Of a stretch of DNA of 64,000 nt, positions 22,218 through 46,253 are shown in pieces. The notes under the pieces are model-generated. The model ran no database searches, was not told the DNA's origin, and saw only the letters and a program-made list of their open reading frames with translations. This stretch comes from a virus, in IMG/VR virus record IMGVR_UViG_3300037067_018253; one strand, 5' to 3'. The number at the start of each line of letters is the position of its first letter. Position 1 is the stretch's first letter. A program made the position numbers and the translations under genes.

Positions 22218-22511
22218 TCAGGCTTTACCGTTTCCCTTGTCTTTGCCAAAGCAATTATCCATCCGGCGGTCCAGCCGGGCGATTCCCTCATTGACCTCTT
22301 GCTTTGTTTCCTTGATACCGTCATGGAACTCTCTTTTGGCGTTCGCCATCTCAGTCTGTAATACCAAGGTAGTGCCGGCCACTTCTTTTTCACAAGATGA
22401 AATGCGCCCTTCGAGTTTGCCCATACAGCCTGATATTTTCCAGACAGATCCAATAACGGTAAATATAATTCCGCTTCCAGTTCCGATAATGGCTATAGTT
22501 GCTGCGTCCAT
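22218..22511 (-). CDS. holin-like small membrane protein
   Basis: N-terminal TM segment TIAIIGTGSGIIFTVIGSVW followed by coiled-coil; immediately upstream of the peptidase. Confidence 0.35.
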   Translation of the reverse strand: MDAATIAIIGTGSGIIFTVIGSVWKISGCMGKLEGRISSCEKEVAGTTLVLQTEMANAKREFHDGIKETKQEVNEGIARLDRRMDNCFGKDKGNGKA

Positions 22512-22523
22512 GACTTTTCCTTT

Positions 22524-23222
22524 CTACTTGTCTACCATTTTCCAGATATCGCCGTTAGGTAGCACGTTCTTAGTGAACATCTTGTATGGCATGGTTGATA
22601 TTCCGTTCACACCCCACAGCAACCTACCCCATGAGTTAGCTACAAGCCACCCTATCTCATCCCACCCAATAATTCTGAAGGCATGACCGCCGGCATTATT
22701 ACCATGTGGTTCAGGGAACATAGCCTTGGCATTATTCCAACTTTCAAACCACAGGCAAGCCGCGACAATACTGCCGTACTGGTACAGCACCTGTTTTATC
22801 GCTTCATCAGTACTCTCCGGCCCCATCCGGTAGTAAGCCTGGATCGCCCAGTATGAATCAGGCTTTTTCTGGAAACACAGTGATCCCTTCTGCCGGCACC
22901 CTTGTTCCTGAAGTATTTTCATCACTACACGCGGATATGTGCCCGGGGTATCAGGTATGCCGTCTATCTTCTTGCATTCGTTGTATAGCCACAACCCGTC
23001 GAAATTAACACGTTGCTTCGATTGCAAGAACTCCTGGTCAGTCTTACATCCGGTTGCGGCAAAAGCGCTGCACGCCGGATCCCCATTCTGGTCGTATATA
23101 ACCGTGTCCGGCCAGACAGTGTACTTTTTGGGAAGAGGCAGCGCCTGGTAGATTAGCCGCCTTGCCTCAAAATCACGGCTATCGGGGATATCCTTGATCC
23201 ATCCAAATAATCTTTCAACCAT
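22524..23222 (-). CDS. papain-like (C1-type) cysteine peptidase, candidate lysin
   Basis: Q...C block YDQNGDPACSAFAATGC; His block GGHAFRIIGWD; Asn block ANSWG. Confidence 0.5.
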   Translation of the reverse strand: MVERLFGWIKDIPDSRDFEARRLIYQALPLPKKYTVWPDTVIYDQNGDPACSAFAATGCKTDQEFLQSKQRVNFDGLWLYNECKKIDGIPDTPGTYPRVVMKILQEQGCRQKGSLCFQKKPDSYWAIQAYYRMGPESTDEAIKQVLYQYGSIVAACLWFESWNNAKAMFPEPHGNNAGGHAFRIIGWDEIGWLVANSWGRLLWGVNGISTMPYKMFTKNVLPNGDIWKMVDK

Positions 23223-23902
23223 TATATTGCAAAATACTTTCTTTCTGATTGAAACACTTTATATAGTTGATTTACTGTGGTGGTTACTGACATGCGAAGC
23301 ATAACGATGTAACCATCAAAGGTTCTATTGAGTGTTGCAGTTCCAACTCTTGCCAATGCTCCAACATTTGGAGGCGAAGTGACTGCACCTACTACTGAGG
23401 TTACATCAGTAAAACCATTCTTATTACCAATGTAAAGCTTCCTGGCGACTGTATTTATATGTGCTACCACAAATTGCCAGGAATTCATAACAACAGAGTT
23501 GCCAGACGACTCTGTTGCTGAGTCGTGGTCAACCAAAACTCTTAGAATATTACCAGTAGAAACATAGAATGCATAACCATCATACGCAGTTGTTGCAGTG
23601 CTTTTTTCTATAATGCGACCTGATGAAGCTGCTCCTAATGTTCTCGGATAAATCCACCCATAGATAAAGCCACCTCGTGTGAATCTCATTGATGGTGAAT
23701 CAGGAATTTCACAGTAAGAAGTAGCACCATTGAAATCTCGTACAAATAATCCCGATGGCAGCCTCACCCATGTAACATTGCTGTGTGTGCCATTATTGTG
23801 CCACCGAGAATTATCTTCATAGGCTGAGGCTGGTGTCGCTATACCAGTGTAGACTCGCTCGTTTAAGACCAAATTTGTTACACTCATATAATTCCAAACC
23901 AC
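23222..23902 (-). CDS. LamG/ConA-like lectin-domain protein (paralog 4)
   Basis: DNSRWHNNGTHSNVTWVRLPSG...FDGYI; conserved C-terminus SERKYFAI. Confidence 0.55.
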   Translation of the reverse strand: MVWNYMSVTNLVLNERVYTGIATPASAYEDNSRWHNNGTHSNVTWVRLPSGLFVRDFNGATSYCEIPDSPSMRFTRGGFIYGWIYPRTLGAASSGRIIEKSTATTAYDGYAFYVSTGNILRVLVDHDSATESSGNSVVMNSWQFVVAHINTVARKLYIGNKNGFTDVTSVVGAVTSPPNVGALARVGTATLNRTFDGYIVMLRMSVTTTVNQLYKVFQSERKYFAI

Positions 23903-24708
23903 CGCTTTTCAGATTCAAAGTTATTGCGAATTTCTCCAACAGATAATACTCTTTTAGATACCTTTAATGGATGTAAAAATCCATCAAAACTAGCTGCACT
24001 AGCAGTATTATCACCGATGCGTAAATTTTCACTTGCATCAGATATAATAGCCCCTACTGGAGCTAAGGTCTCAGTGACTGTAATAGAATTTCCATTCAAT
24101 GTAAAAATAGGATTATTCGCAACATTAGAGCCATTATATGTAATCCCAATATGAGAATATTTATTTAATGGAATAACTCTATCGGATTCCCAAGTTGCCC
24201 ATCCACCTGTCCATAATACTGCAAGACCTAGTTTTACATATCCAGCAACTTCATCATAAACATAAGAATAAAATCCCAATGTTGCTAAATCACTTTTATC
24301 TATGATTCTACCAACGTCATTTTCTCCATCACTTAATGGATTTATCCATATAAGAATTGTTCCTCCAGTGATAAAAATATTCTGAATTGATGGTGAATCA
24401 GTTATTGTTATTCGACTCGAAGCTCCATTAAATGAATATAACCATTTTCCACTAGGTAGTCTTACTTGTGTTACATTAGTAAAGACGCCATTATTATGAT
24501 AACGACTTCTATCCACTAGACTCGCTGGTGGAGTAGAGTTACTATTATACCTAGCTGGATTTAGAACAATATTATCAGACATTGAACCACCTACGCTCAG
24601 ACTCATAACTTTTACCAGCATCATCAGAATTAAATAGATAATTATGTATCTCAGGTAATGCCATATACCCAGGAAGTCTCCTTGGGGTAGCTCCACCTCT
24701 AGCTCCAA
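23884..24708 (-). CDS. LamG/ConA-like lectin-domain protein (paralog 3)
   Basis: DRSRYHNNGVFTNVTQVRLPSG...FDGFL...SEKRWFGII; true start probably internal, around 24582-24606. Confidence 0.55.
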   Translation of the reverse strand: MELEVELPQGDFLGIWHYLRYIIIYLILMMLVKVMSLSVGGSMSDNIVLNPARYNSNSTPPASLVDRSRYHNNGVFTNVTQVRLPSGKWLYSFNGASSRITITDSPSIQNIFITGGTILIWINPLSDGENDVGRIIDKSDLATLGFYSYVYDEVAGYVKLGLAVLWTGGWATWESDRVIPLNKYSHIGITYNGSNVANNPIFTLNGNSITVTETLAPVGAIISDASENLRIGDNTASAASFDGFLHPLKVSKRVLSVGEIRNNFESEKRWFGII

Positions 24709-25276
24709 GCATGACTGTATTACCGACTGGATTCAGAATGTCCACAATGTTTACCAGAGTCATAACTACACCATTTAGATAAAATTCAATAGTTGAAGTC
24801 GCTATGTTCCAGACATGAATCCACTGGTTCCAACGAGTAGATAGTAATGCTGACCCTCCCAATATACCGACCGTATTGGCACCAATGCCGAGGTAAACTG
24901 CATCAAGAGTTTGACCATATCCTATAGTTATGTCTGCTGTGGTAGGAGTATTAAGGTCTTTATTAAATACCACATAATTATTTGCAAAGTTATTGAACTT
25001 TACCCAGGCTTTAAATGTCTGTTGGGTATTTAAGTATAAACTTGCTCCTGTTCCTAAAGTTATTTGGCTGGTTACACCGTCAAACGATATAGCGAAAAGA
25101 TCGGATGGTAATTGGCTCCATGTAGTACCTGCTGTAAATACTCCGTTGTTGTTATAACGAGAAGAATCAGACAATTCCAACGCAGGTGAAGTACTACCTG
25201 GAGGACTCCAGAATTTCTCACCTTGGAATACTATATTTGAGGCTTTAGACATTATAGAGCCTCCTCTCGGATTCAA
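24575..25276 (-). CDS. LamG/ConA-like lectin-domain protein (paralog 2)
   Basis: SDSSRYNNNGVFTAGTTWSQLPS...SERRWFNV. Confidence 0.55.
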   Translation of the reverse strand: MNPRGGSIMSKASNIVFQGEKFWSPPGSTSPALELSDSSRYNNNGVFTAGTTWSQLPSDLFAISFDGVTSQITLGTGASLYLNTQQTFKAWVKFNNFANNYVVFNKDLNTPTTADITIGYGQTLDAVYLGIGANTVGILGGSALLSTRWNQWIHVWNIATSTIEFYLNGVVMTLVNIVDILNPVGNTVMLGARGGATPRRLPGYMALPEIHNYLFNSDDAGKSYESERRWFNV

Positions 25277-25964
25277 AAATATGGAGTAACTGCGCTAAAT
25301 CTAATGCGTAGGTAAATATGCGTAATTTAGAGATGTAACCATCAAAGCCTCGGTCTACTGCAGCAGTTTGATTTCCAATTCTCGTTATCGAAGATACATT
25401 AGGGGGTAAAGATAATCCACCTGCGATGTTAGTAACATCACTAAAACCTTTAGCATTACCAGAATATATTTTACGGGCGGTACTATTAATATATACTACA
25501 CAAAACTGCCAAGAGTTAAGTATGATTGAATTTGCATTACTGATTGTTACCGCATCGTTATTTACTGATACTATCAAACTCCTTACATTGGTTACATTAT
25601 TAACTTGAAATCTATATCCATTTGTACCAAGTACATCACTGCCTTTATGGATAATGCGACCACCATTAGACCCTCCAAGAGTTCGTGGATAAATCCACCC
25701 TAGTATCATTCCACCACGTGTAAATCGCATACTTGGTGAATCAGGTATTTCTGCATACGCATCTAATGCACCGCCATTGCCATAGTCAGGAATCCATAAG
25801 TCGTTATTCGGAAATCCATTTAACTTATTTTGCTGGCTCCATGTGACATTAGTAAGCGCACCATTGTTACCCATCCTCGATGCGTCATATAAAGTAACAG
25901 CAGATGGGGATGCCCCACCTGCTCTACTGGCGACATCTAATATTTCACTTGAACTTAGCTTCAT
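25245..25964 (-). CDS. LamG/ConA-like lectin-domain protein (paralog 1)
   Basis: DASRMGNNGALTNVTWSQ...FDGYI...SERRLYNV. Confidence 0.55.
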   Translation of the reverse strand: MKLSSSEILDVASRAGGASPSAVTLYDASRMGNNGALTNVTWSQQNKLNGFPNNDLWIPDYGNGGALDAYAEIPDSPSMRFTRGGMILGWIYPRTLGGSNGGRIIHKGSDVLGTNGYRFQVNNVTNVRSLIVSVNNDAVTISNANSIILNSWQFCVVYINSTARKIYSGNAKGFSDVTNIAGGLSLPPNVSSITRIGNQTAAVDRGFDGYISKLRIFTYALDLAQLLHIFESERRLYNV

Positions 25965-26175: not shown

Positions 26176-26604
26176 TTAATATGTAATGGCATCATATGTA
26201 TGATACAAAACTTTGACTATTGCAGCAGAACCACCTACTGAATCCATGATTTTTGCTCTCAGCCTGCTATTGCGTGGAATTATTATTGTCTGCATCGGCA
26301 TTGAGTGTGAGCCTAATAATAAATTTGTTCTAGCAAAAGTAAGGCGACCGCACTCAGTATCAGCAGCTCCATAGTACAACACAAGTTCATAATCAGCATT
26401 TACACTCTCTCCTGATACCACTATCCAGTGAATATCGAATGGCAATGCCACTGCATTGGCTGCAATTATATCGTTGCTAAAGTTACCGAGTGTCCACGCT
26501 GCGACATTTGATGTGACTGTAATACCAGCTGCCCCACTGGGCGCAACCATTTGTGGAGAATGAATATGGTCACATAGTTCATGCAAATTACCTATCGGTG
26601 ACAT
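26176..26604 (-). CDS. structural-module hypothetical protein
   Basis: Operon context. Confidence 0.4.
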   Translation of the reverse strand: MSPIGNLHELCDHIHSPQMVAPSGAAGITVTSNVAAWTLGNFSNDIIAANAVALPFDIHWIVVSGESVNADYELVLYYGAADTECGRLTFARTNLLLGSHSMPMQTIIIPRNSRLRAKIMDSVGGSAAIVKVLYHTYDAITY

Positions 26605-26607
26605 ATT

Positions 26608-27096
26608 TTACCTCTTTGCGTCAAAGATTTCATAAGTTAAAGTATTCCAACCGCCACCAATGGCAGCTTGTTGGGTAGTAACCCGTACCCCGTAGACGCT
26701 AAATAATCTACCTGGCGTCACATCTGTATTCGTATTGCGCGGGAATGGGACGAGTATTGGTACTGGCAATGCTGCAGCTAAGAATGTTTCAGTATATAGT
26801 AATCTCAATGTGCCCGCTGGTACTATTGAGCCATAGACTCGTATCGTAGTGTCCTCACCAGCGCCAAAGTTAAGTCCTGTCCAATCGATGTAGCCACCAT
26901 AAAACTCAAATGGAGTGGTGCTAGTCTCAAGATAGAGTTGCTGTTCTGCACCAGTCATTAGCAATGTGCCTGATTGCGGCGAGCGAGCTAAATCAAGCTG
27001 TTGGTCGAGCCTGTCTGCTATAGATTGGAGAGTTTCAGCCCCGCCTTGTATTAGCAACTCAAGCCAGTAAATACGCTGCAAGTTAGTTTCTGACAT
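26608..27096 (-). CDS. structural-module hypothetical protein
   Basis: Operon context. Confidence 0.4.
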   Translation of the reverse strand: MSETNLQRIYWLELLIQGGAETLQSIADRLDQQLDLARSPQSGTLLMTGAEQQLYLETSTTPFEFYGGYIDWTGLNFGAGEDTTIRVYGSIVPAGTLRLLYTETFLAAALPVPILVPFPRNTNTDVTPGRLFSVYGVRVTTQQAAIGGGWNTLTYEIFDAKR

Positions 27097-27106
27097 ATCC
27101 CTCTCC

Positions 27107-27793
27107 CTAATTTCTCACTATGAACTCGGGGTATATTTTCACCACGCCGATCGCCGGTGTAGACGCACCCCCGGCGCCATTTAAAATATAAAAGTTCGGG
27201 AACATCGCCTGGTCCGGTAGGTTTGCAACATGGTCCGCTATCTGTGTTCCGTTCAGGAAGAATACCACGTGCCCACGGTATATCTCCATCCTGAAATTAT
27301 TTCTATTTGTAAGAGTTTCACCAAACCCGGTATTAACGGTTTCCACACCACCAAGGTCCGTGACAGTTTGAAGCGCATTTCCAGCGCCGATGAGGGCAAC
27401 CCCGATTATATCATTAGTCGTTCTCGTGCTTACCACTGTCGGCGTGAAACCGAAGAATGTTGACACATTACTCATGTTGGCAACATTAGTAAGCTGCATA
27501 ACCCATTCAAATATAATCTTCTTGATTATCGTGCTGGTGTTGTATATTGTCGGCGCGACACTCCACGCATTATTACCAACGAGCCGGCAATTTTCACTGG
27601 CCGCTGGAACTGCCGTAGCCCGCTGCATGCCACTGCTTGCGCTAATAGCCCATGCGGCCCCAGTGAGTGGTTGTGTAAGCGTCCAGCGTAATTCAGAAAT
27701 ACCCACCGGGCTTTGCCATGTTTCGATAAGCTGCTCGGTGGGGGACTGAATGGTATTAAGAATATCCTTTAATGCCCCAATTTCATCTATCAT
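27107..27793 (-). CDS. structural-module hypothetical protein
   Basis: Operon context. Confidence 0.4.
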   Translation of the reverse strand: MIDEIGALKDILNTIQSPTEQLIETWQSPVGISELRWTLTQPLTGAAWAISASSGMQRATAVPAASENCRLVGNNAWSVAPTIYNTSTIIKKIIFEWVMQLTNVANMSNVSTFFGFTPTVVSTRTTNDIIGVALIGAGNALQTVTDLGGVETVNTGFGETLTNRNNFRMEIYRGHVVFFLNGTQIADHVANLPDQAMFPNFYILNGAGGASTPAIGVVKIYPEFIVRN

Positions 27794-27795
27794 TA

Positions 27796-28482
27796 CTAAA
27801 CCCCAAACAAATCACGTTCGAGTTGGAATAGCTGATATGCTTCTGCCGCACTCAACTGCCGTCCCCATATCCGAGGACGGTACATATAACCGGAGTACTG
27901 AGGCGCGCCACCGGCATTATTACATCCGAAGTACATATTTCTTACCGCGGCGGCTGGATTCACATGTACGCCTACGCTTGAATACGCTGGCTCCGCCCCG
28001 TTTATATAGATGTGACAACTTGCCCCGGAACGAGTCGCCATAATTAAATACCACTGGTTAATCAATATTACGTTTACAGTGAATGTGCTTTGCCCTGTTC
28101 CACCTTGGCGCGTGAGAAGAGATACCTTGCCTTCGACGCTAACATTCATTGACCAACCATCGGTAATCGTTGCGCCCCGGTTCATTAACGGGTATCCCAA
28201 CAGGGCGCCGGTATTTATCCACACCATGAGGCTGAAATCCCCAGCCGTAAAATTCAGGTCAGCCGTTGCAGCCGCCGGGCACTGCAAGTAATCCGGGTGA
28301 GCTGGATTGAAAGACAAATATGGCGTGCCGTTAGCCAGGGATGCCCATGACGGCGTGCCGGTTAGCGTATGCTGGTGATGCGGCTTGGCGTTATCGTTCG
28401 TCAATACCCCGGTTTCTTCCATGAAAGGAAGGTCCAGCAGTATTTGCGAGTATAGTGATTGTTTATCATATCCAATTGTCAT
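27796..28482 (-). CDS. LamG/ConA-like lectin-domain protein (paralog 5)
   Basis: HHQHTLTGTPSWASLANGTPYLSF...FSLMVWI...LERDLFGV. Confidence 0.5.
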   Translation of the reverse strand: MTIGYDKQSLYSQILLDLPFMEETGVLTNDNAKPHHQHTLTGTPSWASLANGTPYLSFNPAHPDYLQCPAAATADLNFTAGDFSLMVWINTGALLGYPLMNRGATITDGWSMNVSVEGKVSLLTRQGGTGQSTFTVNVILINQWYLIMATRSGASCHIYINGAEPAYSSVGVHVNPAAAVRNMYFGCNNAGGAPQYSGYMYRPRIWGRQLSAAEAYQLFQLERDLFGV

Positions 28483-28488
28483 GTAAAT

Positions 28489-29199
28489 TTAAACCCCGTA
28501 ATGCGAATGTTCTAATTGAAAGATGGTTTTCATTTCCATCGCATTTAGTTCCCGTCCCCATATCCTCAATTGCCCCATGTATCCATCCCACCCGTTAGTA
28601 ATCTCATTATTTTGTATGCCCACCAGCAGTTTGTTGCCACCGGCGCAGGATACAGGGTCAATCAATGTTCCGATGGTATCCGCCACATCACCATTGATGT
28701 AAAATTGCCCCGAAGCGCCATGGCGCGTTACGCCAGCAAGGTGCCACTGAGATGGAATAAATGCGCCTACCGCGCTAATTCCGGTATGGGACCCCAACTG
28801 GCTGGTCCGGAGTGCCAGTGTATTTACACCCGGGAACATATAGAACTCAAATCCATCGACATCAACAGCCCCCTGGCACACGATTTCCTGTGCCCCTCCG
28901 AGTGCATTATTGTATACCCATGCCAGGAAGGTAAAATCTCCATTAGTGAAATTAACATCAGCACTCTCAGCGCCAGGGCACTGTAAATACTTGGAACCAC
29001 CACTGAGGTCCAGATATGGCGCACCGCCTGGTAGTGAAGCCCACGCTGCGCCACCTGTAAGGGTTAATTCATGATGAGCCTTGGCGCGGTCATAAGTAAC
29101 CAGCCCGCTCATTTCCGTGAAGGGTAAGTCTACCAGCATCTGGTAGCCTATGCCGGTCTTGTCGTAGGCTATCTTCACGATCTCAATAGTACCTCCCAA
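28489..29199 (-). CDS. LamG/ConA-like lectin-domain protein (paralog 6)
   Basis: HHELTLTGGAAWASLPGGAPYLDL...FTFLAWV...LEHSHYGV. Confidence 0.5.
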   Translation of the reverse strand: MGGTIEIVKIAYDKTGIGYQMLVDLPFTEMSGLVTYDRAKAHHELTLTGGAAWASLPGGAPYLDLSGGSKYLQCPGAESADVNFTNGDFTFLAWVYNNALGGAQEIVCQGAVDVDGFEFYMFPGVNTLALRTSQLGSHTGISAVGAFIPSQWHLAGVTRHGASGQFYINGDVADTIGTLIDPVSCAGGNKLLVGIQNNEITNGWDGYMGQLRIWGRELNAMEMKTIFQLEHSHYGV

Positions 29200-29873
29200 T
29201 CGTAATCAAGCGCATTTCCAACCAGCCTGGTGAGAGTCACCTTGACACCAAAGCGGTTTGGCTCCAGCTCTACATTTTTAAGCGGCATAGATTGCGCGCC
29301 GATTAACGTAATCGTGTCTTTGAGTATGAAATTGCCGCCGGCTTTAATCCGGTAATATACTTTCAGCGCAATCGTTTCTGCCGCCGTATTATTAGTGAAA
29401 TCAATAAGAACCCTTAACGGCTCAAATACCCCAGCTGGGGCATTGTTGATATAAATATTTTGTTCTGTACCGTCTGTGGTTAAAGTGCCCCCGGTTTCAT
29501 TTAACACAAGGATAGAGGCAATCAAGTTGATCAGGTTGTTATATATATCAGTTAGCATGCCAGAGCTATTAGGGGAAGGTACGTTGACCTTGTATCTTAC
29601 GCCGGCTGGTACCTGTCCGCCCTTAAAGGCAGCGTCAACTGTTATTTCACCAGTGAGGTTATTAAATGCAGTAGCCGAATGAACATCGATTCTAGTCGGG
29701 TCATCGTAATATATTTCTATTGAGAAACCAACGAATGTATTAGCGCCATATCCAATTAAATTGGCATCAATAATACTCATTCCGCCAATGGCGCCAGCCA
29801 CAGTGGTTAAACCCTGGTATGCAACCGTGGAATGAAAAACGCTAACTAACTCATCTATAGGTGGTCTTTGCAT
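29175..29873 (-). CDS. structural-module hypothetical protein
   Basis: Operon context. Confidence 0.4.
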   Translation of the reverse strand: MQRPPIDELVSVFHSTVAYQGLTTVAGAIGGMSIIDANLIGYGANTFVGFSIEIYYDDPTRIDVHSATAFNNLTGEITVDAAFKGGQVPAGVRYKVNVPSPNSSGMLTDIYNNLINLIASILVLNETGGTLTTDGTEQNIYINNAPAGVFEPLRVLIDFTNNTAAETIALKVYYRIKAGGNFILKDTITLIGAQSMPLKNVELEPNRFGVKVTLTRLVGNALDYDWEVLLRS

Positions 29874-29878
29874 ATTTT

Positions 29879-30526
29879 CTAATTCCCCAGCGCACTTATA
29901 ACTTCAAGGTCAGTTATAGCCTGTGCAGCATCAAGATTTTCAATTCTTACCTTGGCATACATTGGCGCCGTGTCATAATGCCGTGTTTCCCTTAAAACAC
30001 CCCCAGCCGCAAATCCACAATCAAATGAATCCCAGTCATAATTATCATAGTCAGCGCCAGGTATCGAGTATACATCACCAAGATTCCACCTGTTGGTAGT
30101 ACCACCTAGCAGTGCCGCTACAGTCACGGTAGTCTCAGTATTCCCAGTGATAACGCCAGAACTGCCATCGGTAACATTCTGGATTGTCAAGCCGATTAAT
30201 TCATTGGCGACAAAATGTGCAGCTGCATCCGTCATAACGGTAAGGTTCATAGCGGCCGTATGTGTTCCGGCACTGGCGTTGGTGGTAGACGTTACCACGT
30301 GTACCCTTGCGCCCCGGGTGGCCGCAGCATTATATCTGCCCTTTATGGTCAATGTTAACGTGCGCTTACCTGCCTGCATGTTAATAGCAGTACAGTTAGC
30401 TAAAGTAGTAATGGCAGTAGCCGCAAGTGGGGTTAAATCAATTACCGTTGTTGCGGTTTTTACCCCGGGTATGCCACCGCCACCAAATACAGCCAGTAGT
30501 ACTCTGGTTAATACAGATTCCAACAT
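29879..30526 (-). CDS. Thr/Ala-rich beta-type structural protein
   Basis: Composition; operon context. Confidence 0.4.
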   Translation of the reverse strand: MLESVLTRVLLAVFGGGGIPGVKTATTVIDLTPLAATAITTLANCTAINMQAGKRTLTLTIKGRYNAAATRGARVHVVTSTTNASAGTHTAAMNLTVMTDAAAHFVANELIGLTIQNVTDGSSGVITGNTETTVTVAALLGGTTNRWNLGDVYSIPGADYDNYDWDSFDCGFAAGGVLRETRHYDTAPMYAKVRIENLDAAQAITDLEVISALGN

Positions 30527-30530
30527 AGCT

Positions 30531-30701: not shown

Positions 30702-30722
30702 ATACTCATGGATGCACCAACC

Positions 30723-36046: not shown

Positions 36047-36089
36047 GTTTTTTATTTCCTCCTCCTTAATAATAAGAAGCCTTCTCTAT

Positions 36090-39402: not shown

Positions 39403-40446
39403 CTATAATTGGTAGGTGGTATATGTCTGCGATTCCCCGCTCATATATTGTATTTCAACCTGCGCATTTCCAGGCTGTAGTGTTCCATAGGTACCTACAT
39501 CTATGGTGTTTTGCCCAACTCCGCCCGGTCCAGTCGCAGAACCCAGTGTAAATCCATCAGATCTGCGAGATATAATCACGGCTACCGTCTCCGCGGCCTT
39601 TCCACTGATGGTATAATTAACCCTTACCTTTCCATTGTCAGCCAGTGCCGGTACTACGATTGATGCAGACGTGATATTTACCTGTGTGGGGGCGCCTTCA
39701 CCCCTGGCTGGTATATATACCTCAGACTCCACCCAATTAGAATATACAGGGCTGCCATAGGCATTAGGTACGCCCGCTATGGGTTTATATACAACCACTC
39801 TGAATTTGATTGCATGCATACCTTCAGGCACATCGCTTGAAACCGCCTGATACCCGTTGATAGAAAATTTTTGTTCCGGTTCTGGCACGGGCCAACCATA
39901 ATCAAGCTCCTGAACCTGTGGGCTGTAATCAGGGATGTTCATTTGCAATCTTGCTACACCAGGCTTCTCGCCGGTATAATACCACGTTCCCTGTATCAAT
40001 AATCCGGGCGGTACCGTTGTAAATGTCATCCATCCGGCCCCGCATCGCTCAAGGTATACAATGGTAGATGGTGAAGTCGGCGGCGGTTCAGTTTCTGGTG
40101 GTGCCTCCGGTGGAGTAAATGCATTGGTATAATTCTGTGCCAGTAACGACAGGTCGAGTGAATCTATGACACCATCATTATTAAAATCAGCCTGCGGATT
40201 CCATATACCGAGTGTCGGCGTAGCCATGTAGGACTCCAGTAATATATTCGTGTCCTCGTCATCCACTACACCATCATGGTCAAGGTCAAAATCTGGCTTA
40301 CCCGGTATTATCTCCGGGGGTAACTCCACGGATTCTTTATACCACGGCCACCGACCTTTCCATGGAAGATAATCCTCCAGTATTTTTGGCAGTGGCGGCC
40401 CCTCTTTAATGCCGACAGGCAACCAATCTATTATTTTAAAAGACAT
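39403..40446 (-). CDS. structural protein carrying a type I dockerin module and Pro/Thr linker
   Basis: DLDHDGVVDDEDTNILLESYM and DFNNDGVIDSLDLSLLAQNY repeats; PPEAPPETEPPPTSPS linker; N-terminal GPPLP...WPW motif. Confidence 0.6.
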   Translation of the reverse strand: MSFKIIDWLPVGIKEGPPLPKILEDYLPWKGRWPWYKESVELPPEIIPGKPDFDLDHDGVVDDEDTNILLESYMATPTLGIWNPQADFNNDGVIDSLDLSLLAQNYTNAFTPPEAPPETEPPPTSPSTIVYLERCGAGWMTFTTVPPGLLIQGTWYYTGEKPGVARLQMNIPDYSPQVQELDYGWPVPEPEQKFSINGYQAVSSDVPEGMHAIKFRVVVYKPIAGVPNAYGSPVYSNWVESEVYIPARGEGAPTQVNITSASIVVPALADNGKVRVNYTISGKAAETVAVIISRRSDGFTLGSATGPGGVGQNTIDVGTYGTLQPGNAQVEIQYMSGESQTYTTYQL

Positions 40447-40455: not shown

Positions 40456-41250
40456 CTATTTTATCCACGGCCATTTTATATGAAGGAAATTTGGCAGTGG
40501 GGGTCCATTCCATGGCAGCATGGGCAACCACATGGAAAGAAGCGATGAGCCGCTTTCCAGAACAGGTGGTGTCGCCGCCTTTTCTCTAATTGTATTACTG
40601 TTCCAGTCATATACATAGATCTTATCGGTTTCAAGTTCCAGGAATGGAACCTGCCTGATTTCTTTTTGAATACTCCCATCTTCATCCATGCGGAAATTAA
40701 GGTACTGGTAGGTCTTTAGATTCCATATGGAAACAGGCTGGTCTACTGCCGCATCACCACTAGTATAATTACCGGTCACGAATCCATTTACCCACCAGTG
40801 GACAGTTCCAGCCGGCGGATTTTCCAAGTAGATAGTAGTGCGCGGCACCTCAACCGGAGGTGGTGGTGTAACTATCACTGCTGATGGTGTAACGGTTACA
40901 ATAGTACCATCACCACTAAGCGCAACGTCGAATGTATCATCAACAGTATTGATTATAAATGGTTGCGAATAGTAGTAATCATCCACCGGCAGGGGCTTTA
41001 TACCGGTGAAATCCAGCCATCTTATTCCTAATACCACCGGTCTATTCAAAAAGTCATTTATGTTAATCCAGTCTGGTGGGCTCGTATTCCACGTATATCC
41101 CTCTGCGGGGTAGCTAACTACGGATGGCCCAAATGCACTAGGCGATGATGCTGGATTAACTATCTGCAACGTGATACCCATAGCACTTGGTGTTCTGTTT
41201 AGAATCGGGCTTATGGGATTACCTGTCAGTAAGAATGTAGGCATTATCAT
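40456..41250 (-). CDS. structural protein with C-terminal PPW-GPPLP-WPWIK motif
   Basis: C-terminus LPMLPWNGPPLPNFLHIKWPWIK. Confidence 0.45.
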   Translation of the reverse strand: MIMPTFLLTGNPISPILNRTPSAMGITLQIVNPASSPSAFGPSVVSYPAEGYTWNTSPPDWININDFLNRPVVLGIRWLDFTGIKPLPVDDYYYSQPFIINTVDDTFDVALSGDGTIVTVTPSAVIVTPPPPVEVPRTTIYLENPPAGTVHWWVNGFVTGNYTSGDAAVDQPVSIWNLKTYQYLNFRMDEDGSIQKEIRQVPFLELETDKIYVYDWNSNTIREKAATPPVLESGSSLLSMWLPMLPWNGPPLPNFLHIKWPWIK

Positions 41251-41258: not shown

Positions 41259-41498
41259 CTAGATTATTTTTCTTCCGGTAAGTACCTCAAACTCACGGCG
41301 AAGTTCCTCGGTAAACCCGCGCTTCCTGATTGTCACCCATGGGGGCTCTTCCTGAATACGTCTGACTGCGCGGGTAAAGAAACCAGGCCATGAAATATCC
41401 CACGAATCCGGCAACGGGGGTCCTTTGGATGGTGAGGTCGGTTTTAGAAGTATCTCTGCAATTTGCAGTACAGTCGCCTGTTTATTTGTTACTGGCAT
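41259..41498 (-). CDS. small protein with GPPLP...W.WPG motif
   Basis: SKGPPLPDSWDISWPGFF. Confidence 0.35.
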   Translation of the reverse strand: MPVTNKQATVLQIAEILLKPTSPSKGPPLPDSWDISWPGFFTRAVRRIQEEPPWVTIRKRGFTEELRREFEVLTGRKII

Positions 41499-42069: not shown

Positions 42070-42984
42070 TTATCCTTTTGGGTTAATTCCCAGTATTTCC
42101 CTGATTCTTTCCCTGATGTCATAGTCGTAAATACATCCATCAGTAAGATTACTGGGGAAATCTTGGCCTTGCAGATATGGCAAAAATGCACTAGCCAGCC
42201 GATTGAAGGCATATTCAGGTGGAGAAGGTGAATACTTGTCCTGCGTGCATTTAATGTTGAGCATGACCACTTGTCCAACCCACTCAGCGATCTGGTTCAT
42301 AGTTGGCGGAGATGGATTTGTAAGCCAGTACGTGCCTGGCTCTTTTATCCGCGCCATTGCATCCGTAACAGCCTCAACCTTGACGATATTAAGATGCCCG
42401 CATGGATTACCGTAAAGCCTGAAAGTAATCTCTAATGGTGGTAAATGTACCGCACCCTCGAATGCCCTGCGGATTAACTCTGCGCGCCGGTGTACCTTTA
42501 TTATTAAAGATATAAAGGTGGAAAAATGTTCTTCATTTGGACCAAACACAATCCCCGGCTTAAAAACGGTCACATTCGGAATGTCACTGTGGCTTACCAG
42601 CAGTTCGCAGACTGATTTTGATATTTCGTAGGTATTCATAGACTGGCAAAAGGCAGTGCTGCAATAATACAGGTGGGGTACTTTATGCTTTGCGCAGAAA
42701 TCTATGACGTTTTTAGTGCCTTCTACATTGGTACGCCATATTTCCCCGGATTTATCTTCTCCAAGGCGTAGAACTGCGGCCAGGTGGTATACTGCATCGA
42801 AATGTTTATCGTTCCATACCCTGCCGAAATCAGGCAATAGTATATCGCCGGAAACCTCTCCATTATCTGGATAAGCTGCACCATGATGTATGAGTTTTAC
42901 TACTTCGTTACCTTGTTTTACCAGCTTGGGTATCAGCGAACGTCCGATTGCCCCAGTACCACCGGTGACTAATATAGTTCCCAA
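42070..42984 (-). CDS. NAD-dependent epimerase/dehydratase (extended SDR)
   Basis: VTGGTGAIGRSL Rossmann motif; YxxxK at YEISK; probable TTG start. Confidence 0.7.
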   Translation of the reverse strand: MGTILVTGGTGAIGRSLIPKLVKQGNEVVKLIHHGAAYPDNGEVSGDILLPDFGRVWNDKHFDAVYHLAAVLRLGEDKSGEIWRTNVEGTKNVIDFCAKHKVPHLYYCSTAFCQSMNTYEISKSVCELLVSHSDIPNVTVFKPGIVFGPNEEHFSTFISLIIKVHRRAELIRRAFEGAVHLPPLEITFRLYGNPCGHLNIVKVEAVTDAMARIKEPGTYWLTNPSPPTMNQIAEWVGQVVMLNIKCTQDKYSPSPPEYAFNRLASAFLPYLQGQDFPSNLTDGCIYDYDIRERIREILGINPKG

Positions 42985-43443: not shown

Positions 43444-43646
43444 TAGTTACCCTCCTTAAATTCAAGGATAGTATTACCATCAGGTCCAACCTGTATCACT
43501 TCTAGTGAAGCGTTATCAGGTACATTGGACATTGCTTCCTTAACAGCGAGGCCAGAATATCCGGCAGAAACGGTTACTATGTGCCTAGCTGGAATAATTT
43601 GCTGTTCTACTTTACGGTAGCTCACCTTATTCCCCCTTGATCCCAT
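43443..43646 (-). CDS. hypothetical small protein
   Basis: ORF. Confidence 0.3.
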   Translation of the reverse strand: MGSRGNKVSYRKVEQQIIPARHIVTVSAGYSGLAVKEAMSNVPDNASLEVIQVGPDGNTILEFKEGN

Positions 43647-43935
43647 TTTCCTTGTTACCTACATACCCTTCTTTAATAGTAGAGCCGGTCGAATACAGCC
43701 CGCTGGCCGCCATACCAGCGATAATACCATTAAATAGCGCGCCTACCCATTCTGAGGCTGTGCTTGCGCCAAGCGCCCATCCAGATATAAGGTTGATTGC
43801 CAGTCCGAAAGCCACGGCCAGCAGCGGGTAAAACCGGGTATCGGAGATGAAAGGCTTAAAAAGCTGGACTATACCCAGTATTAATGGGACGCCGCCAATA
43901 GCTACCAGGGATTTAGTTAAATCACTACTAATCAA
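43627..43935 (-). CDS. small membrane protein (3 TM)
   Basis: Hydrophobic segments. Confidence 0.35.
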   Translation of the reverse strand: MISSDLTKSLVAIGGVPLILGIVQLFKPFISDTRFYPLLAVAFGLAINLISGWALGASTASEWVGALFNGIIAGMAASGLYSTGSTIKEGYVGNKENGIKGE

Positions 43936-43972: not shown

Positions 43973-44245
43973 TTACACCCCCACCTTTAACCTACCGGCC
44001 ATCTCCATTATATATTTTCCAGGCAATGCTATATAGTAATGGCGATTTCCATCTAAATTTGATTTCTTACTCAGGTAATTGGTGAAGCATGTAACAGAAC
44101 CAAAGTCTAATTCTTCAAATGGAGATGGTTCACCGGGATAATCAACTGTTATATGTATATGTTCTCCCTCGATTATCCTTTCACATTGGTCACAGGTTAA
44201 TATGGATTCCTCCGCCGTAATTATCTCTTTCATTATTTCCCCCAT
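43973..44245 (-). CDS. hypothetical protein (CDQCE Zn-like)
   Basis: ORF. Confidence 0.3.
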   Translation of the reverse strand: MGEIMKEIITAEESILTCDQCERIIEGEHIHITVDYPGEPSPFEELDFGSVTCFTNYLSKKSNLDGNRHYYIALPGKYIMEMAGRLKVGV

Positions 44246-45666
44246 ATCTTCGCCGCCTGCTGTTCGGCGGCGGTATCTTTATCCAGCGCAGTATTCAGGG
44301 CACCGTCAAGAAGTTTTTTCCTGTCATCGGTCATAGCCGGGGGCTTTTTCCCTGCGAAGGTTTTAACGGTATCCATAATATCTCCACCAGCTCGGTCTAT
44401 GGTACCCTTAAGTCCGCTTAGTCCCTCTTTAAGCACATCCATTTCGCTTGTGGATCCAGCCGCCGGTTGTTCCTTGAGTTTCTTTATCTCTTCGTAAAGG
44501 CCACCGATCATGCCATCCTGTTTAGCCAGCTTTTCCATTAGAGCCGCTTTTTCCTGGTCATCTAGTCGCCTCATCAACTCGGCGTTCTGCGCCTTCAGCA
44601 TGGCCATTTCAGGTGATTCGGCAGGCGCATTCAATTTAGTCTTGATAATTTCAAGCGTTTCCTTCAAGGCTGGGTCCGTACCACCGAAAACACCGAGCTC
44701 TTTCCACATCCTTATCCTGTCAAGCTCGCTCATTTCATTACCACTGGCCCCGGGTTGCTTTCCGGTAAGTTGGGCTATGGCTTGCTGTTTCCGTACCTCT
44801 TCTTCAAGGATATCGGTAACGCCACGATTATCACCCTGGTTACGGCGTGATTTTATGGCTTCCAGTATCATAAAGTCTTGCGCTGAATACCTCTCGCCCT
44901 CAACTGGTTCCGGTGTTCCGTCCTCACCCCTTACGAATTTACCGGATGGTGGGGTTGCAGACGAAATGGCCTGTTTTGCCGCCGCCTCCTTCTTTTCTAT
45001 GTTTGTTATATTCCTTGCCGATGCCCTTTCAGCCTCTGCGTATGTCATGCCTTTTTCACCCTCCGAGGCGTTCCTGATCGTTCCATCCAGGTCAACCGCG
45101 AAACGATAGCTGGCCTCGCTTTCTACTGCCTTTTGTTTGTCAATTTGAGACGGCATTAACGCCGCATTTTTAAGCAGTGCAGATTGAACAGGGATACCGC
45201 GGCTCTTAAACCACTGCTCGATAATCTGTGGCCGTTTGTATGCGGATATATTTTCATGCCAGGTACGTAATCTTTCCGCCAGTTGTTCCGGCTCCTCGAA
45301 AACAAATTCAGTGCCAGTCTCAGCGATATTAAGAGCAATAGCTTCAGCTGTTATTTTGGGCGTTCCAATACCATGCATTTTTAATAGATTAGCGAAGTCC
45401 TTTTGCACATCGGGCATTTCCCGCCTGAACTCCGGCTTTTGAGACACCGGCGCAGATGTCTGTGTTGGCGTAGATAGCATTACATCTTCAGGGCCTGTTT
45501 CTTCATCCCCGTCACCCTCGATTGATTCTATTACCGGTATTTGTTCCTCCACTGCCTGTCCCTTCCTTTTCTTTACTTCTTTGGGCATCTTTCCACTCCT
45601 CGTAATTGTGTAATCTGTACCATGTTTTATCGCCAAAGGGTGATAAAGAGACTTTCCCTTGCTCAA
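44233..45666 (-). CDS. acidic, coiled-coil-rich protein (scaffold-like?)
   Basis: Low-complexity E/K/A-rich sequence; no NTPase motif; true start may be internal (MPKEVKK). Confidence 0.4.
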   Translation of the reverse strand: MSKGKSLYHPLAIKHGTDYTITRSGKMPKEVKKRKGQAVEEQIPVIESIEGDGDEETGPEDVMLSTPTQTSAPVSQKPEFRREMPDVQKDFANLLKMHGIGTPKITAEAIALNIAETGTEFVFEEPEQLAERLRTWHENISAYKRPQIIEQWFKSRGIPVQSALLKNAALMPSQIDKQKAVESEASYRFAVDLDGTIRNASEGEKGMTYAEAERASARNITNIEKKEAAAKQAISSATPPSGKFVRGEDGTPEPVEGERYSAQDFMILEAIKSRRNQGDNRGVTDILEEEVRKQQAIAQLTGKQPGASGNEMSELDRIRMWKELGVFGGTDPALKETLEIIKTKLNAPAESPEMAMLKAQNAELMRRLDDQEKAALMEKLAKQDGMIGGLYEEIKKLKEQPAAGSTSEMDVLKEGLSGLKGTIDRAGGDIMDTVKTFAGKKPPAMTDDRKKLLDGALNTALDKDTAAEQQAAKIWGK

Positions 45667-45850
45667 CCCACTCCAATAGATTTATTTTAAGATAACGAAA
45701 TATACGGCGACGCGCAGCTACATATGTCATACCAAGGTAGTCGGCTACCATGATGCTATTAACAGCACCCATGTTTTTAATCGCGTCCAAATATTTATAT
45801 TTACTTACTCTCTGCATCTTCTCAGTTACAAGTGACAATAACAACGTCAC
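45512..45850 (-). CDS. small HTH-like DNA-binding protein
   Basis: Basic helical protein at the head of the operon; overlaps the next ORF. Confidence 0.3.
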   Translation of the reverse strand: MTLLLSLVTEKMQRVSKYKYLDAIKNMGAVNSIMVADYLGMTYVAARRRIFRYLKINLLEWVEQGKVSLSPFGDKTWYRLHNYEEWKDAQRSKEKEGTGSGGTNTGNRINRG

Positions 45851-45893
45851 CCACCTATCCGGTTTTAGGAAATTCTATCCGCCTGTATCCCCT

Positions 45894-46253
45894 TTATTTA
45901 ATCCTGACAGTAACATTGGCATTTTGGGTTTTACTGTATATATGCAAAGTGGTATCTGCCAGGTTAAGTACATAATTAATATATGACTGGAAAGTGGGTT
46001 CCGGGATAACATGAATCAGGTGGGCATACTGTATTAATTTTTCCAGGTGGTCGTTTTCTGCCGGGGTAAGACGGAACAACTTCTGTATCCTGGGTGGGGG
46101 GGGTGGTTTAATGGCGCCAGCATCACCCTGCGACCTGGATTGTTCCATGCCAGTATTCCCGCTATTTTCCTGTGCGGTATCATTTTGCGTGCTACTTTCC
46201 GGTAACTGGATATTTTCTGCTTGTCCCTGAAATTCTACCATTGTATCCATCAT
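45894..46253 (-). CDS. hypothetical protein (first gene of the minus-strand module)
   Basis: ORF; PPPPR stretch. Confidence 0.35.
   Translation of the reverse strand: MMDTMVEFQGQAENIQLPESSTQNDTAQENSGNTGMEQSRSQGDAGAIKPPPPPRIQKLFRLTPAENDHLEKLIQYAHLIHVIPEPTFQSYINYVLNLADTTLHIYSKTQNANVTVRIK

What the first reader, a model, noticed from the sequence alone, without database searches (positions are those of the whole stretch)
22218..46253. A 24-kb minus-strand block that looks structural but has no recognisable terminase, portal or tape-measure gene
About 45 co-directional genes start with a holin-like protein and a papain-like peptidase and continue through the lectin array, Ig-like and Gly-run proteins and a dockerin protein. 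I find no Walker-A terminase ATPase, no portal-sized protein and no long helical tape-measure protein. Either the block encodes an atypical virion or adhesion apparatus, or the packaging genes lie outside the window or are too divergent to see by eye.
Basis: inference. Interest (0 to 1): 0.6.

Follow-up and report, generated by a model that had tools for sequence, protein, structure and literature searches.

The report
Virion-like module without tailed-phage hallmarks
This 24-kb gene block looks like the particle-building, host-recognition and lysis module of an undescribed ~69-kb circular element, probably a virus of Dehalococcoidia bacteria, whose two best-conserved proteins are jelly-roll folds and whose complete genome has no recognisable terminase, portal or HK97 capsid gene.

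Summary
Window 22218-46253 carries 42 minus-strand ORFs at 96% coding density. Pfam supports a papain-like peptidase, six LamG lectin paralogs, a dockerin protein and an epimerase. No Walker-A ATPase, terminase, portal or tape-measure protein was found.

"Packaging genes lie outside the window" is rejected. Overlapping contigs close the sequence into a 68,865-bp circle, and the missing 4.9 kb holds only small genes plus the end of a type III polyketide synthase.

Virus-type signals:
- a PHROG holin at 43627-43935 and a phage-family peptidase;
- no Sec signal peptides on the lectin or adhesin-like proteins;
- a swappable lectin / beta-helix region in relatives.

Seven of nine genome hits are Dehalococcoidia/Chloroflexota MAGs, and only one IMG/VR contig carries the family.

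Best reading: the virion and lysis module of a new non-tailed, jelly-roll-based virus lineage (confidence 0.55). The capsid role is inferred, not shown. A non-viral assembly or an extremely divergent tailed phage remains possible.

The parts
43627..43935 (-). Holin (102 aa, 2-3 TM segments)
   Evidence: phrog_1299 holin, E 3.1e-16. TM segments found.
44233..45666 (-). 477-aa acidic, Glu/Lys-rich protein in the non-conserved upstream part of the block; not a portal or terminase by any test run
   Evidence: No Pfam, PHROG or phage tblastn match. No Walker A. No homolog in the distant relatives.
42070..42984 (-). NAD-dependent epimerase/reductase; marks the start of the conserved module in relatives
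   Evidence: Pfam Epimerase 1e-17 and NAD_binding_4 1e-16. phrog_540. Conserved in L007, L009, L011, L014 and L019.
41259..41498 (-). 79-aa protein with an N-terminal variant of the shared GPPLP...WP peptide
   Evidence: Motif scan. 61-66% identical homologs in L007 and L011.
40456..41250 (-). 264-aa protein ending in the shared peptide LPMLPWNGPPLPNFLHIKWPWIK
39403..40446 (-). 347-aa protein with the N-terminal shared GPPLP...WPW peptide plus a dockerin type I domain
   Evidence: Pfam Dockerin_1 1.4e-5. Motif.
37584..39389 (-). 601-aa multidomain beta-rich protein with Gly-run linkers; candidate spike/adhesin (inferred)
   Evidence: Sequence. Homologs of 755-974 aa carry faint or weak ASH, CBM_6 and InlB-repeat domains. 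No portal or PHROG hit.
36697..37335 (-). 212-aa conserved core protein with invariant GHG and (hydrophobic strand)-S-C motifs and a C-terminal LPPPPP tail; possible Cys protease (inferred from the motif only)
   Evidence: Alignments. Present in 10 relative loci. No PDB, Pfam or PHROG match.
35726..36422 (-). Two small proteins (110 and 106 aa) directly upstream of the jelly-roll gene, both with strong Shine-Dalgarno sites; the first is Gly/Asn/Val-repeat-rich
   Evidence: Only weak hits to Gly-rich stretches of tape-measure proteins (E 0.002). A pair of 103-114-aa genes sits in the same position in L007 and L009.
34847..35680 (-). Jelly-roll protein 1 (277 aa), found in all 13 relative loci searched; candidate major capsid protein (inferred)
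33711..34712 (-). Two Ala/Gly/Thr/Val-rich proteins (155 and 150 aa) with strong Shine-Dalgarno sites; candidate minor structural proteins (inferred)
   Evidence: The 155-aa protein is conserved in L007, L009 and L011.
32939..33724 (-). 261-aa Cys-rich protein with a weak CxxCxxCC metal-binding domain
   Evidence: Pfam PF03692, 6.5e-4, below the cut-off. Homolog in L009.
32192..32854 (-). Jelly-roll protein 2 (220 aa), 46-63% identical across relatives; candidate second capsid or vertex protein (inferred)
29175..32140 (-). Conserved core genes of unknown fold: 120, 157, 228 (C-terminal zinc ribbon), 59 (shared peptide at the C-terminus), 215 and 232 aa
   Evidence: Conserved in L007, L009, L011, L014, L016 and L019. 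No Pfam or PHROG hit. Motif.
27796..29199 (-). Two LamG / concanavalin-like lectin paralogs
   Evidence: Pfam Laminin_G_3 4.8e-18. 40% identical to each other. Hits to LamG-like parts of PHROG 'virion structural protein' families.
26176..27793 (-). Three proteins of unknown function (142, 162 and 228 aa), poorly conserved
23222..25964 (-). Four LamG lectin paralogs; GC dips to 0.377 across 24001-26000
22524..23222 (-). Papain-family cysteine peptidase at the end of the module; candidate envelope-degrading lysis enzyme (inferred)
   Evidence: Pfam Peptidase_C1 3.7e-7. phrog_16701 peptidase 1.1e-12 over the full length. A Peptidase_C1 gene also ends the module in L007.
22218..22511 (-). 97-aa protein with one N-terminal TM segment and a charged tail; not a recognised holin
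1210..2124 (+). Outside the block: 304-aa P-loop NTPase of an uncharacterised conserved family. It is the only unassigned Walker A/B protein in the genome, a possible packaging ATPase by elimination only, but it sits in a replication context.
   Evidence: Walker A GHKGRGKS and Walker B VLIDEG. 135 clusters, some with a SAP domain. No PDB, PHROG or phage match. Encoded downstream of the clamp-loader gene in both relatives examined, with ArdC-N downstream in one.
59418..60398 (+). Outside the block: about 9-TM UbiA-like membrane protein. Together with 54395-55078 and the type III PKS gene starting near 63470, it lies directly upstream of the module in relatives.

Best explanation
The block is the late module (particle building, host recognition and lysis) of a complete, circular, roughly 68.9-kb double-stranded DNA element. 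That element belongs to an undescribed, widespread lineage associated mainly with Dehalococcoidia (Chloroflexota).

Shown:
- The whole genome lacks any detectable terminase, portal or HK97-type capsid gene.
- The block contains a phage-family holin, a phage-family papain-like peptidase and six lectin paralogs.
- A conserved core of about 12 genes is shared with relatives, and its two best-conserved members are jelly-roll beta-sandwich proteins.

Inferred:
- The jelly-roll proteins 34847-35680 and 32192-32854 form the shell, as single-jelly-roll proteins do in Portogloboviridae and Helvetiavirae.
- The highly expressed small proteins around them are minor, scaffold or core components.
- The His/Cys protein 36697-37335 may process them.
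- The Ig-like, dockerin, LamG and (in relatives) beta-helix proteins are interchangeable host-glycan or S-layer binders.
- Several of these proteins are attached through a shared peptide of about 22 aa (LPMxPxxGPPLPRxLxIxWPWxK).
- Release uses the holin plus a protease rather than a muramidase. This would fit hosts with a proteinaceous, peptidoglycan-free envelope, as known for Dehalococcoides (from my own knowledge).
- DNA would be enclosed without a terminase-portal motor. Either no dedicated ATPase is used, as in SPV1, or the distant 304-aa P-loop protein does the job.
For: - Complete genome: overlaps at 100% / 99.98% identity close the circle at 68,865 bp. An identical jelly-roll gene sits on a 69,004-bp contig. 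A relative with the same backbone is 68,872 bp.
- No terminase, portal or HK97: Pfam and PHROG scans of the block and of every window ORF of 300 aa or more found none. Precomputed Pfam shows '-' for every block gene except the dockerin, LamG and epimerase genes, and for all gap genes except the PKS. No real Walker-A ORF lies within +-10 kb of the jelly-roll gene in five distant relatives.
- Conservation: the two jelly-roll proteins and the 212-aa protein are present in the most relative loci and are 37-63% identical, while neighbouring genes vary. The families are large: 168, 118 and 91 clusters.
- Expression signal: the strongest Shine-Dalgarno sites cluster on 36422-31778.
- Virus signals: holin phrog_1299 at 3e-16 and peptidase phrog_16701 at 1e-12. 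One homolog is a UniRef 'viral metagenome' protein. Lectins in the window are replaced by beta-helix proteins in relatives. By my reading of the N-termini and a hydropathy scan, no block protein has a Sec-type signal peptide.
- Host: 7 of 9 GTDB genome hits are Dehalococcoidales, Dehalococcoidia or Chloroflexota MAGs.
- Precedent: SPV1 builds its shell from two single-jelly-roll proteins, and it lacks a packaging ATPase (PMC8459092, PMC8812541).
Against: - No particle, oligomer or proteomic evidence exists.
- No prokaryotic jelly-roll-capsid virus known to me has a genome near 69-135 kb.
- The block has few small membrane proteins, unlike known membrane-containing icosahedral viruses.
- Only 1 of 2.9 million IMG/VR contigs carries the family.
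- The backbone (ParA, Rep O-like, DnaC-like, integrase, ArdC-N, methylases) would also suit a plasmid.
- About ten block proteins of 200-350 aa were never modelled, so a hidden HK97 fold is not excluded.
Confidence: 0.55

Rival explanations
1. The element is a plasmid or integrative element, not a virus. The block encodes a non-virion assembly: a cell-surface adhesion or glycan-binding apparatus, or an intracellular protein compartment whose components are recruited by the shared GPPLP...WPW peptide.
For: - The backbone is plasmid-like: ParA/NUBPL-type ATPase, Rep O-like, DnaC-like, tyrosine integrase, ArdC-N, DNA methylases.
- LamG, dockerin, Ig-like and beta-helix domains are typical of surface proteins.
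- There is no packaging ATPase in the module.
- IMG/VR almost lacks the family.
- A short terminal peptide shared by unrelated proteins resembles cargo-targeting peptides of protein compartments (the comparison is from my own knowledge).
Against: - None of the lectin, dockerin, Ig-like or beta-helix proteins has a Sec-type signal peptide, by my reading of the N-termini, so export to the surface is unexplained.
- A phage holin family and a phage peptidase family bracket the module.
- The family is absent from 72,556 PLSDB plasmids.
- One homolog comes from a record labelled viral metagenome.
- No conjugation genes were seen.
Confidence: 0.22
2. It is a tailed phage (Caudoviricetes) whose HK97 capsid, portal, terminase and tail genes have diverged beyond HMM detection. 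The block would then be mostly tail, baseplate and fibre genes.
For: - The layout is a long co-directional late block ending in lysis genes.
- Arrays of receptor-binding-like lectins hit LamG parts of large PHROG 'virion structural protein' and 'baseplate wedge' families.
- A Gly-rich 110-aa protein weakly resembles stretches of tape-measure proteins (E 0.002).
- Ten or so proteins were not modelled.
Against: - The genome is complete.
- Every ORF of 400 aa or more was scanned. Each is either assigned to something else or, for the 601-aa and 477-aa proteins, lacks both a Walker A motif and any terminase or portal match.
- The terminase large subunit is normally the most detectable phage gene (my own knowledge), and it is absent from Pfam and PHROG results here and from precomputed Pfam in relatives.
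- The two most conserved proteins are jelly rolls, not HK97.
- No tube, sheath or baseplate-hub family was hit.
Confidence: 0.13
3. The element is a large satellite or helper-dependent element. It supplies adhesins and lysis functions but borrows its capsid and packaging machinery from a co-resident helper virus.
For: No capsid or packaging hallmarks were found anywhere in the complete genome. An integrase is present.
Against: - At 69-135 kb with its own replication set (clamp loader; sliding clamp in a relative; Rep O-like; DnaC-like), it is far larger than known satellites (my own knowledge).
- The conserved, apparently highly expressed jelly-roll core would then have no role.
Confidence: 0.05

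Closest known systems
Portogloboviridae (Sulfolobus polyhedral virus 1)
   Same: - The top structural match of the main conserved protein is SPV1 capsid protein VP4.
- SPV1 also uses two different single-jelly-roll shell proteins, has a circular dsDNA genome and lacks a packaging ATPase (PMC8459092, PMC8812541).
   Different: - SPV1 is 20 kb, infects hyperthermophilic archaea and is presumably non-lytic.
- This element is 69 kb (relatives reach 135 kb), has bacterial-type replication genes, is associated with Chloroflexota, and carries a holin and a peptidase.
Helvetiavirae (Sphaerolipoviridae, Simuloviridae, Matshushitaviridae; e.g. HHIV-2)
   Different: - As I recall, those viruses carry an FtsK/HerA-type packaging ATPase next to adjacent capsid genes, many small membrane proteins, and genomes of about 16-31 kb.
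- Here no P-loop gene lies within 10 kb of the jelly-roll genes.
- The two jelly-roll genes are separated by three genes and are not homologous to each other.
Late (morphogenesis plus lysis) operon of tailed phages
   Same: A co-directional, densely packed block; a holin; a lytic enzyme at the end; arrays of variable receptor-binding-type proteins.
   Different: No terminase, portal, HK97 capsid, tail tube or tape-measure protein was detected in the complete genome. The conserved core proteins have jelly-roll folds.
Dehalococcoides IME1 elements (proposed non-tailed, budding or filamentous dsDNA viruses; bioRxiv 10.64898/2026.09.15.751708)
   Same: The same host phylum. Both lack tailed-phage hallmarks and encode a tyrosine recombinase.
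   Different: - IME1s are 21-28 kb and have a pI/Zot-like ATPase.
- They encode hydrophobic SSV1-VP1-like structural proteins and many TM or signal-peptide proteins, and are proposed to be non-lytic.
- The present block has few TM proteins, no pI-like ATPase hit, soluble jelly-roll proteins and lysis genes.

Membership tests
Caudoviricetes (tailed phages) | Terminase large subunit (ATPase plus nuclease) | tested here: not met
   No Pfam or PHROG terminase hit in any ORF scanned, which includes every window ORF of 300 aa or more. The missing 4.9 kb has none on record. The Walker-A scan finds only the clamp loader and a 304-aa P-loop protein.
Caudoviricetes (tailed phages) | HK97-fold major capsid protein | tested here: inconclusive
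   [not shown]
Caudoviricetes (tailed phages) | Portal protein | tested here: not met
   The only portal-sized unassigned proteins (601 and 477 aa) have no Pfam, PHROG or phage tblastn match. Homologs of the 601-aa protein are repeat/adhesin-like. This was tested by sequence only, not by fold.
Helvetiavirae-type viruses (two vertical single-jelly-roll capsid proteins) | Two single-jelly-roll major capsid proteins forming the shell | tested here: inconclusive
   [not shown]
Helvetiavirae / Bamfordvirae (Varidnaviria) | FtsK/HerA-type packaging ATPase encoded with the capsid genes | tested here: not met
   No real Walker-A ORF in the block or within +-10 kb of the jelly-roll gene in L007, L009, L011, L014 and L019. 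The distant 304-aa P-loop protein shows only generic P-loop similarity, with DUF87/HerA in 2 of 43 members at E 0.066.
Bamfordvirae | [quoted passage not shown] | tested here: not met
   Both models contain a single beta-sandwich. No DJR family was hit by Pfam or PHROGs. Other proteins were not modelled.
Portogloboviridae | Homology to SPV1 VP4/VP10, a circular genome of about 20 kb, an archaeal host | tested here: not met
   [not shown]
Inovirus-like / IME1-like elements | pI/Zot-like assembly ATPase and small hydrophobic major coat proteins | tested here: not met
   No Zot family among the 25 Pfam families listed for the 43 members of the P-loop family. Only about 4 of 42 block proteins have a genuine hydrophobic N-terminal or TM segment.
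Encapsulin nanocompartments | HK97-fold shell protein plus cargo with terminal targeting peptides | tested here: not met
   A shared terminal peptide exists, but the conserved candidate shell proteins are not HK97-fold.

The most novel reading that the evidence does not exclude
These 63-135-kb circular elements are a new high-rank lineage of lytic bacterial dsDNA viruses of Dehalococcoidia and other subsurface bacteria.
- Their shell is built from jelly-roll proteins unrelated in sequence to any known capsid protein.
- The genome is several times larger than that of any known prokaryotic jelly-roll virus.
- DNA is enclosed without a terminase-portal or FtsK/HerA motor.
- Interchangeable lectin and beta-helix spikes are plugged in through a common GPPLP...WPW docking peptide.
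- A virus-encoded lipid pathway (type III polyketide synthase, UbiA-like prenyltransferase, reductase) is linked to the structural module.
Probability: 0.3. Interest if true: 0.9.

Novelty: new variant of a known kind. Interest (0 to 1): 0.78.

Why it matters
- If the reading is right, a widespread group of large mobile genomes in groundwater, sediments and the subsurface is a virus lineage that current virus-detection pipelines miss almost completely. Only one contig among 2.9 million in IMG/VR carries it.
- It would extend jelly-roll-capsid viruses of prokaryotes to genomes of 69-135 kb.
- It would add a second non-tailed virus type for Dehalococcoidia, a group important for organohalide bioremediation.
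- It would give candidate marker genes (the 277-aa and 220-aa families) for finding such viruses.
- The shared terminal peptide and the lipid-synthesis genes linked to the module are testable leads on how such particles are built.
- Even if the block is not a virion, a conserved multi-protein assembly that appears to be made in the cytoplasm, with lectins and a common targeting peptide, would be new biology.

Tried and rejected
**DNA and protein searches against public records**
- Megablast of the block against 50,697 phage records: no match.
- tblastn of the 277-aa protein against phages and plasmids, and of the 601-, 477-, 304- and 232-aa proteins against phages: no match.
- The clamp loader gave only generic hits in unannotated records and was uninformative.

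**Profile and structure searches**
- Profile searches against PDB sequences with A1, A2, A3 and A4, and with the single 304-aa protein: nothing significant.
- PHROG scan of ten distant members of the 277-aa family: none matched.
- Foldseek against BFVD: only low-TM C1q-like matches, not used as evidence for function.

**Internal paralogy**
- hhalign of A1 against A2, and all-against-all among 14 block proteins: no relationship except a weak link between 29879-30526 and 30723-31409. A first all-pairs run timed out.

**RNA and regulatory signals**
- Rfam and tRNA scans: nothing.
- Promoter/terminator scan: not discriminating.

**Ideas dropped or left open**
- 'The 304-aa P-loop protein is the packaging ATPase' is not supported. 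In both relatives examined it lies downstream of the clamp-loader gene in a replication-type context, with ArdC-N downstream in one. It is kept only as a possibility.
- Literature searches found no description of this family. The Dehalococcoides IME1 preprint describes a different element.

Full report
**1. What is in the sequence**

Window 22218-46253 holds 42 ORFs of at least 48 aa on the minus strand, and they cover 96% of the bases.

Family matches:

| Coordinates | Match |
|---|---|
| 22524-23222 | Papain-family peptidase, 3.7e-7, above the Pfam cut-off |
| 28489-29199 | Laminin_G_3, 4.8e-18 |
| 39403-40446 | Dockerin type I domain, 1.4e-5, above the cut-off |
| 42070-42984 | NAD-dependent epimerase/reductase, 1e-17 |

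- BLAST links six LamG paralogs, four at 23222-25964 and two at 27796-29199. Precomputed Pfam on identical contigs agrees.
- All other proteins of the block scanned with PHROGs (29 in all) returned nothing, apart from the holin, peptidase, LamG-part, epimerase and two unknown-function hits and weak similarity of a Gly-rich 110-aa protein to Gly-rich stretches of tape-measure proteins.
- A Walker-A scan of all six frames finds no ATPase in the block.

- The block is transcribed from 46253 and ends with the peptidase.
- The 97-aa 'holin-like' protein has no holin match, while 43627-43935 is a clear member of a phage holin family (phrog_1299, 3e-16).
- The minus-strand run continues down to about 6560 through replication genes.
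- Two proteins (601 and 477 aa) are portal-sized but do not resemble portals.

**2. The surroundings and the completeness of the genome**

The flanks encode:
- a Rep O-like protein, a DnaC/IstB-like ATPase and an MCM-like AAA protein;
- a tyrosine integrase and an RNase H-fold nuclease;
- a clamp loader and a ParA/NUBPL-type ATPase;
- two DNA methylases and a PAPS reductase;
- TnpB, a radical SAM protein and an ArdC-N protein.

Exact look-ups of the first and last window genes returned contigs from other assemblies that overlap both ends.
- L022 equals window 62620-64000 and runs on.
- L022 positions 3054-4809 equal L024 1-1756.
- L024 3194-14343 equals window 1-11151. All overlaps are 99.98-100% identical.

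The sequence therefore closes into a circle of 68,865 bp, and the window misses only 4,865 bp. That gap encodes the rest of a type III polyketide synthase plus ORFs of 146, 260, 151, 143, 151, 66, 58, 52, 81 and 79 aa. None of these ten ORFs has a Pfam hit on record.

An identical copy of the main conserved gene lies on a 69,004-bp JGI contig. That is 139 bp longer than the circle, as an assembler's terminal overlap would be. A roughly 46%-identical relative with the same backbone order lies on a 68,872-bp contig.

'Packaging genes lie outside the window' can therefore be set aside.
- Every window ORF of 300 aa or more was scanned.
- Each is assigned to something else, carries only an unknown-function PHROG hit (the 392-aa protein and the 346+246-aa split gene), or lacks both a Walker A motif and any terminase or portal match (the 601-aa and 477-aa proteins).
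- Two unassigned exceptions of just over 300 aa remain: the 304-aa P-loop protein treated in section 6 and the 326-aa UbiA-like membrane protein.

**3. The conserved core**

- The 277-aa protein 34847-35680 belongs to a large, tightly conserved, entirely unannotated family.
  - There are 168 clusters at E below 1e-3, mostly about 50% identical, from subsurface, sediment and groundwater metagenomes, on contigs up to 135 kb.
  - A full HMMER search of 1.84 billion representatives found 91 representatives.
- Ten distant members of the family have no PHROG match.
- tblastn finds nothing in GenBank phages or PLSDB plasmids.
- Only one IMG/VR contig carries it.

Comparison with 13 relative loci shows a shared core:
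- the epimerase;
- small proteins carrying a proline/tryptophan peptide;
- a large repeat protein (601 aa here, 755-974 aa in relatives);
- a 212-aa protein and two proteins of about 105 aa;
- the 277-aa protein and a 155-aa protein;
- a 220-aa protein (46-63% identity, the best conserved of all);
- proteins of 120, 157, 228 and 215 aa.

After the core comes a variable region, and in L007 a Peptidase_C1 gene ends the module. Where the window has LamG lectins, relatives have right-handed beta-helix and InlB-repeat proteins. The part from 42989 to 46253, which includes the 477-aa protein, has no homolog in the distant relatives.

**4. Folds**

- With a 55-sequence alignment, AlphaFold2 gave a confident model of the 277-aa protein (pLDDT 90.1, pTM 0.88). 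It has N-terminal hairpins, three helices (residues 62-105) and an eight-stranded sandwich (residues 119-267).
  - Next came generic jelly rolls: nucleoplasmin, discoidin domains, the PBCV-1 and STIV capsid proteins, the STIV turret and a satellite virus coat.
- Foldseek against predicted viral structures gave only low-TM C1q/TNF-like matches.
- The two families are not detectably homologous to each other, and neither matches any PDB sequence.

What was recovered is a pair of jelly-roll proteins without close structural relatives.

**5. Virion or something else?**

For a virion:
- a phage holin family and a phage peptidase family (phrog_16701, 1e-12) lie in the block;
- the LamG proteins match LamG-like parts of large phage 'virion structural protein' families;
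- by my reading of the N-termini and a hydropathy scan, the lectin, dockerin, repeat and beta-helix proteins have no Sec-type signal peptides, so they are made in the cytoplasm;
- a conserved core next to a swappable glycan-binding region is the usual pattern of virus structural modules (inference from general knowledge);
- the strongest ribosome-binding sites (AAGGAGGT) sit on the genes from 36422 to 31778, including both jelly-roll genes;
- one homolog is a UniRef 'viral metagenome' entry.

Against a virion:
- the fold evidence is generic;
- there is no packaging ATPase in the module in the window or in five relatives;
- the backbone would also suit a plasmid;
- there are few small membrane proteins;
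- no particle evidence exists.

**6. The 304-aa P-loop protein (1210-2124)**

- It has Walker A (GHKGRGKS) and Walker B (VLIDEG) motifs.
- It belongs to another conserved unannotated family of 135 clusters, some with a SAP DNA-binding domain.
- It has no PDB, PHROG or phage match.
- It is the only unassigned candidate for a packaging ATPase.
- However, in both relatives examined it is encoded downstream of the clamp-loader gene, with an ArdC-N gene downstream in one of them.

I treat a packaging role as possible but unsupported.

**7. Host**

- Of nine loci found in one genome per GTDB species, seven are in Dehalococcoidales, Dehalococcoidia or Chloroflexota MAGs. NCBI names for other members include Dehalococcoidales bacteria.
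- Binning of a mobile element is weak evidence, so the host call is moderate.
- A protease rather than a muramidase as the lytic enzyme would fit hosts with a proteinaceous, peptidoglycan-free envelope, as described for Dehalococcoides (my own knowledge). This step is inference.
- A 2026 preprint describes another non-tailed virus lineage in Dehalococcoides, IME1: 21-28 kb, with a pI-like ATPase and hydrophobic coat proteins. It is clearly a different element, but it shows that this host group carries unconventional viruses.

**8. Comparison with known systems**

- In working principle the closest systems are dsDNA viruses whose shell is made of two single-jelly-roll proteins.
  - Portogloboviridae: SPV1 VP4 hexamers and VP10 pentamers, a 20-kb circular genome, no packaging ATPase (PMC8459092, PMC8812541).
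  - Helvetiavirae.
- Membership in either group is not supported. There is no sequence homology, the structural scores are weak, the host domain and genome size differ, and there is no adjacent FtsK/HerA ATPase.
- Membership in Caudoviricetes fails on terminase and portal (by HMM). It also fails on HK97 for the two proteins tested.

**9. Verdict**

The most likely reading (0.55) is a virion-plus-lysis module of a new lineage of non-tailed, jelly-roll-based viruses with a complete 68.9-kb circular genome.

| Rival | Confidence |
|---|---|
| Non-viral assembly carried on a plasmid | 0.22 |
| Extremely divergent tailed phage | 0.13 |
| Helper-dependent element | 0.05 |

I rate the novelty as a new variant of a known kind (jelly-roll dsDNA viruses). 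If particles are confirmed, there is a substantial chance that it is a new high-rank lineage.

Noticed in passing
window 30530-30709, 40456-41250, 39403-40446, 41259-41498; also L007, L009, L011, L013, L014, L019: A conserved peptide of about 22 aa, [LW]LPMxPxxGPPLPRxLxIxWPW[YK]K, sits at the extreme C-terminus or near the N-terminus of two to four otherwise unrelated proteins per genome, including the dockerin protein and, in L019, a 655-aa protein. It looks like a common docking or targeting tag. Its partner is unknown.
   Followed up: partly
window 54395-55078, 59418-60398, about 63470 to beyond the window end; L007 1-2167, L009 48-2004, L011 238-2802: A membrane protein with at least four predicted TM segments, a roughly 9-TM UbiA-like protein and a type III polyketide synthase (chalcone-synthase-like, 351 aa) are conserved across the lineage. 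In relatives they lie directly upstream of the epimerase/reductase that opens the structural module. This may be a phenolic-lipid pathway carried by the element.
   Followed up: partly
window 56468-57601 and short copies at 12539-12636 and 43036-43096: The TnpB (OrfB_IS605) gene is flanked by sequences that recur elsewhere in the genome: 98 nt at 95% identity and 61 nt at 98% identity, both inverted. One copy lies inside the block, between the epimerase gene and the 102-aa gene. They may be transposon ends or guide-RNA-related remnants.
   Followed up: no
L014 7358-9181, homolog of window 36697-37335: In this Chloroflexota MAG contig, the conserved 212-aa His/Cys protein is interrupted right after its invariant GHG motif by an insertion of about 380 aa. 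The insertion could be an intein or an inserted domain.
   Followed up: no
window 8514-10230: Two overlapping ORFs (346 and 246 aa) correspond to a single 571-aa gene in the 99.98%-identical contig L024, so one of the assemblies carries a frameshift. The protein has a weak GHKL-ATPase (HATPase_c_3) signal and matches phrog_6077.
   Followed up: no
window 24001-26000: GC falls to 0.377, against about 0.45-0.48 elsewhere, over two of the LamG lectin genes. This suggests recent acquisition or fast turnover of these genes.
   Followed up: no
window 2396-2677: A 93-aa protein next to the P-loop gene also carries a Dockerin_1 hit in the precomputed Pfam of the identical contig (L024 5589-5870). It is a second dockerin, outside the block.
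   Followed up: no
whole window: No tRNA gene was found and no Rfam family reached its gathering score.
   Followed up: yes
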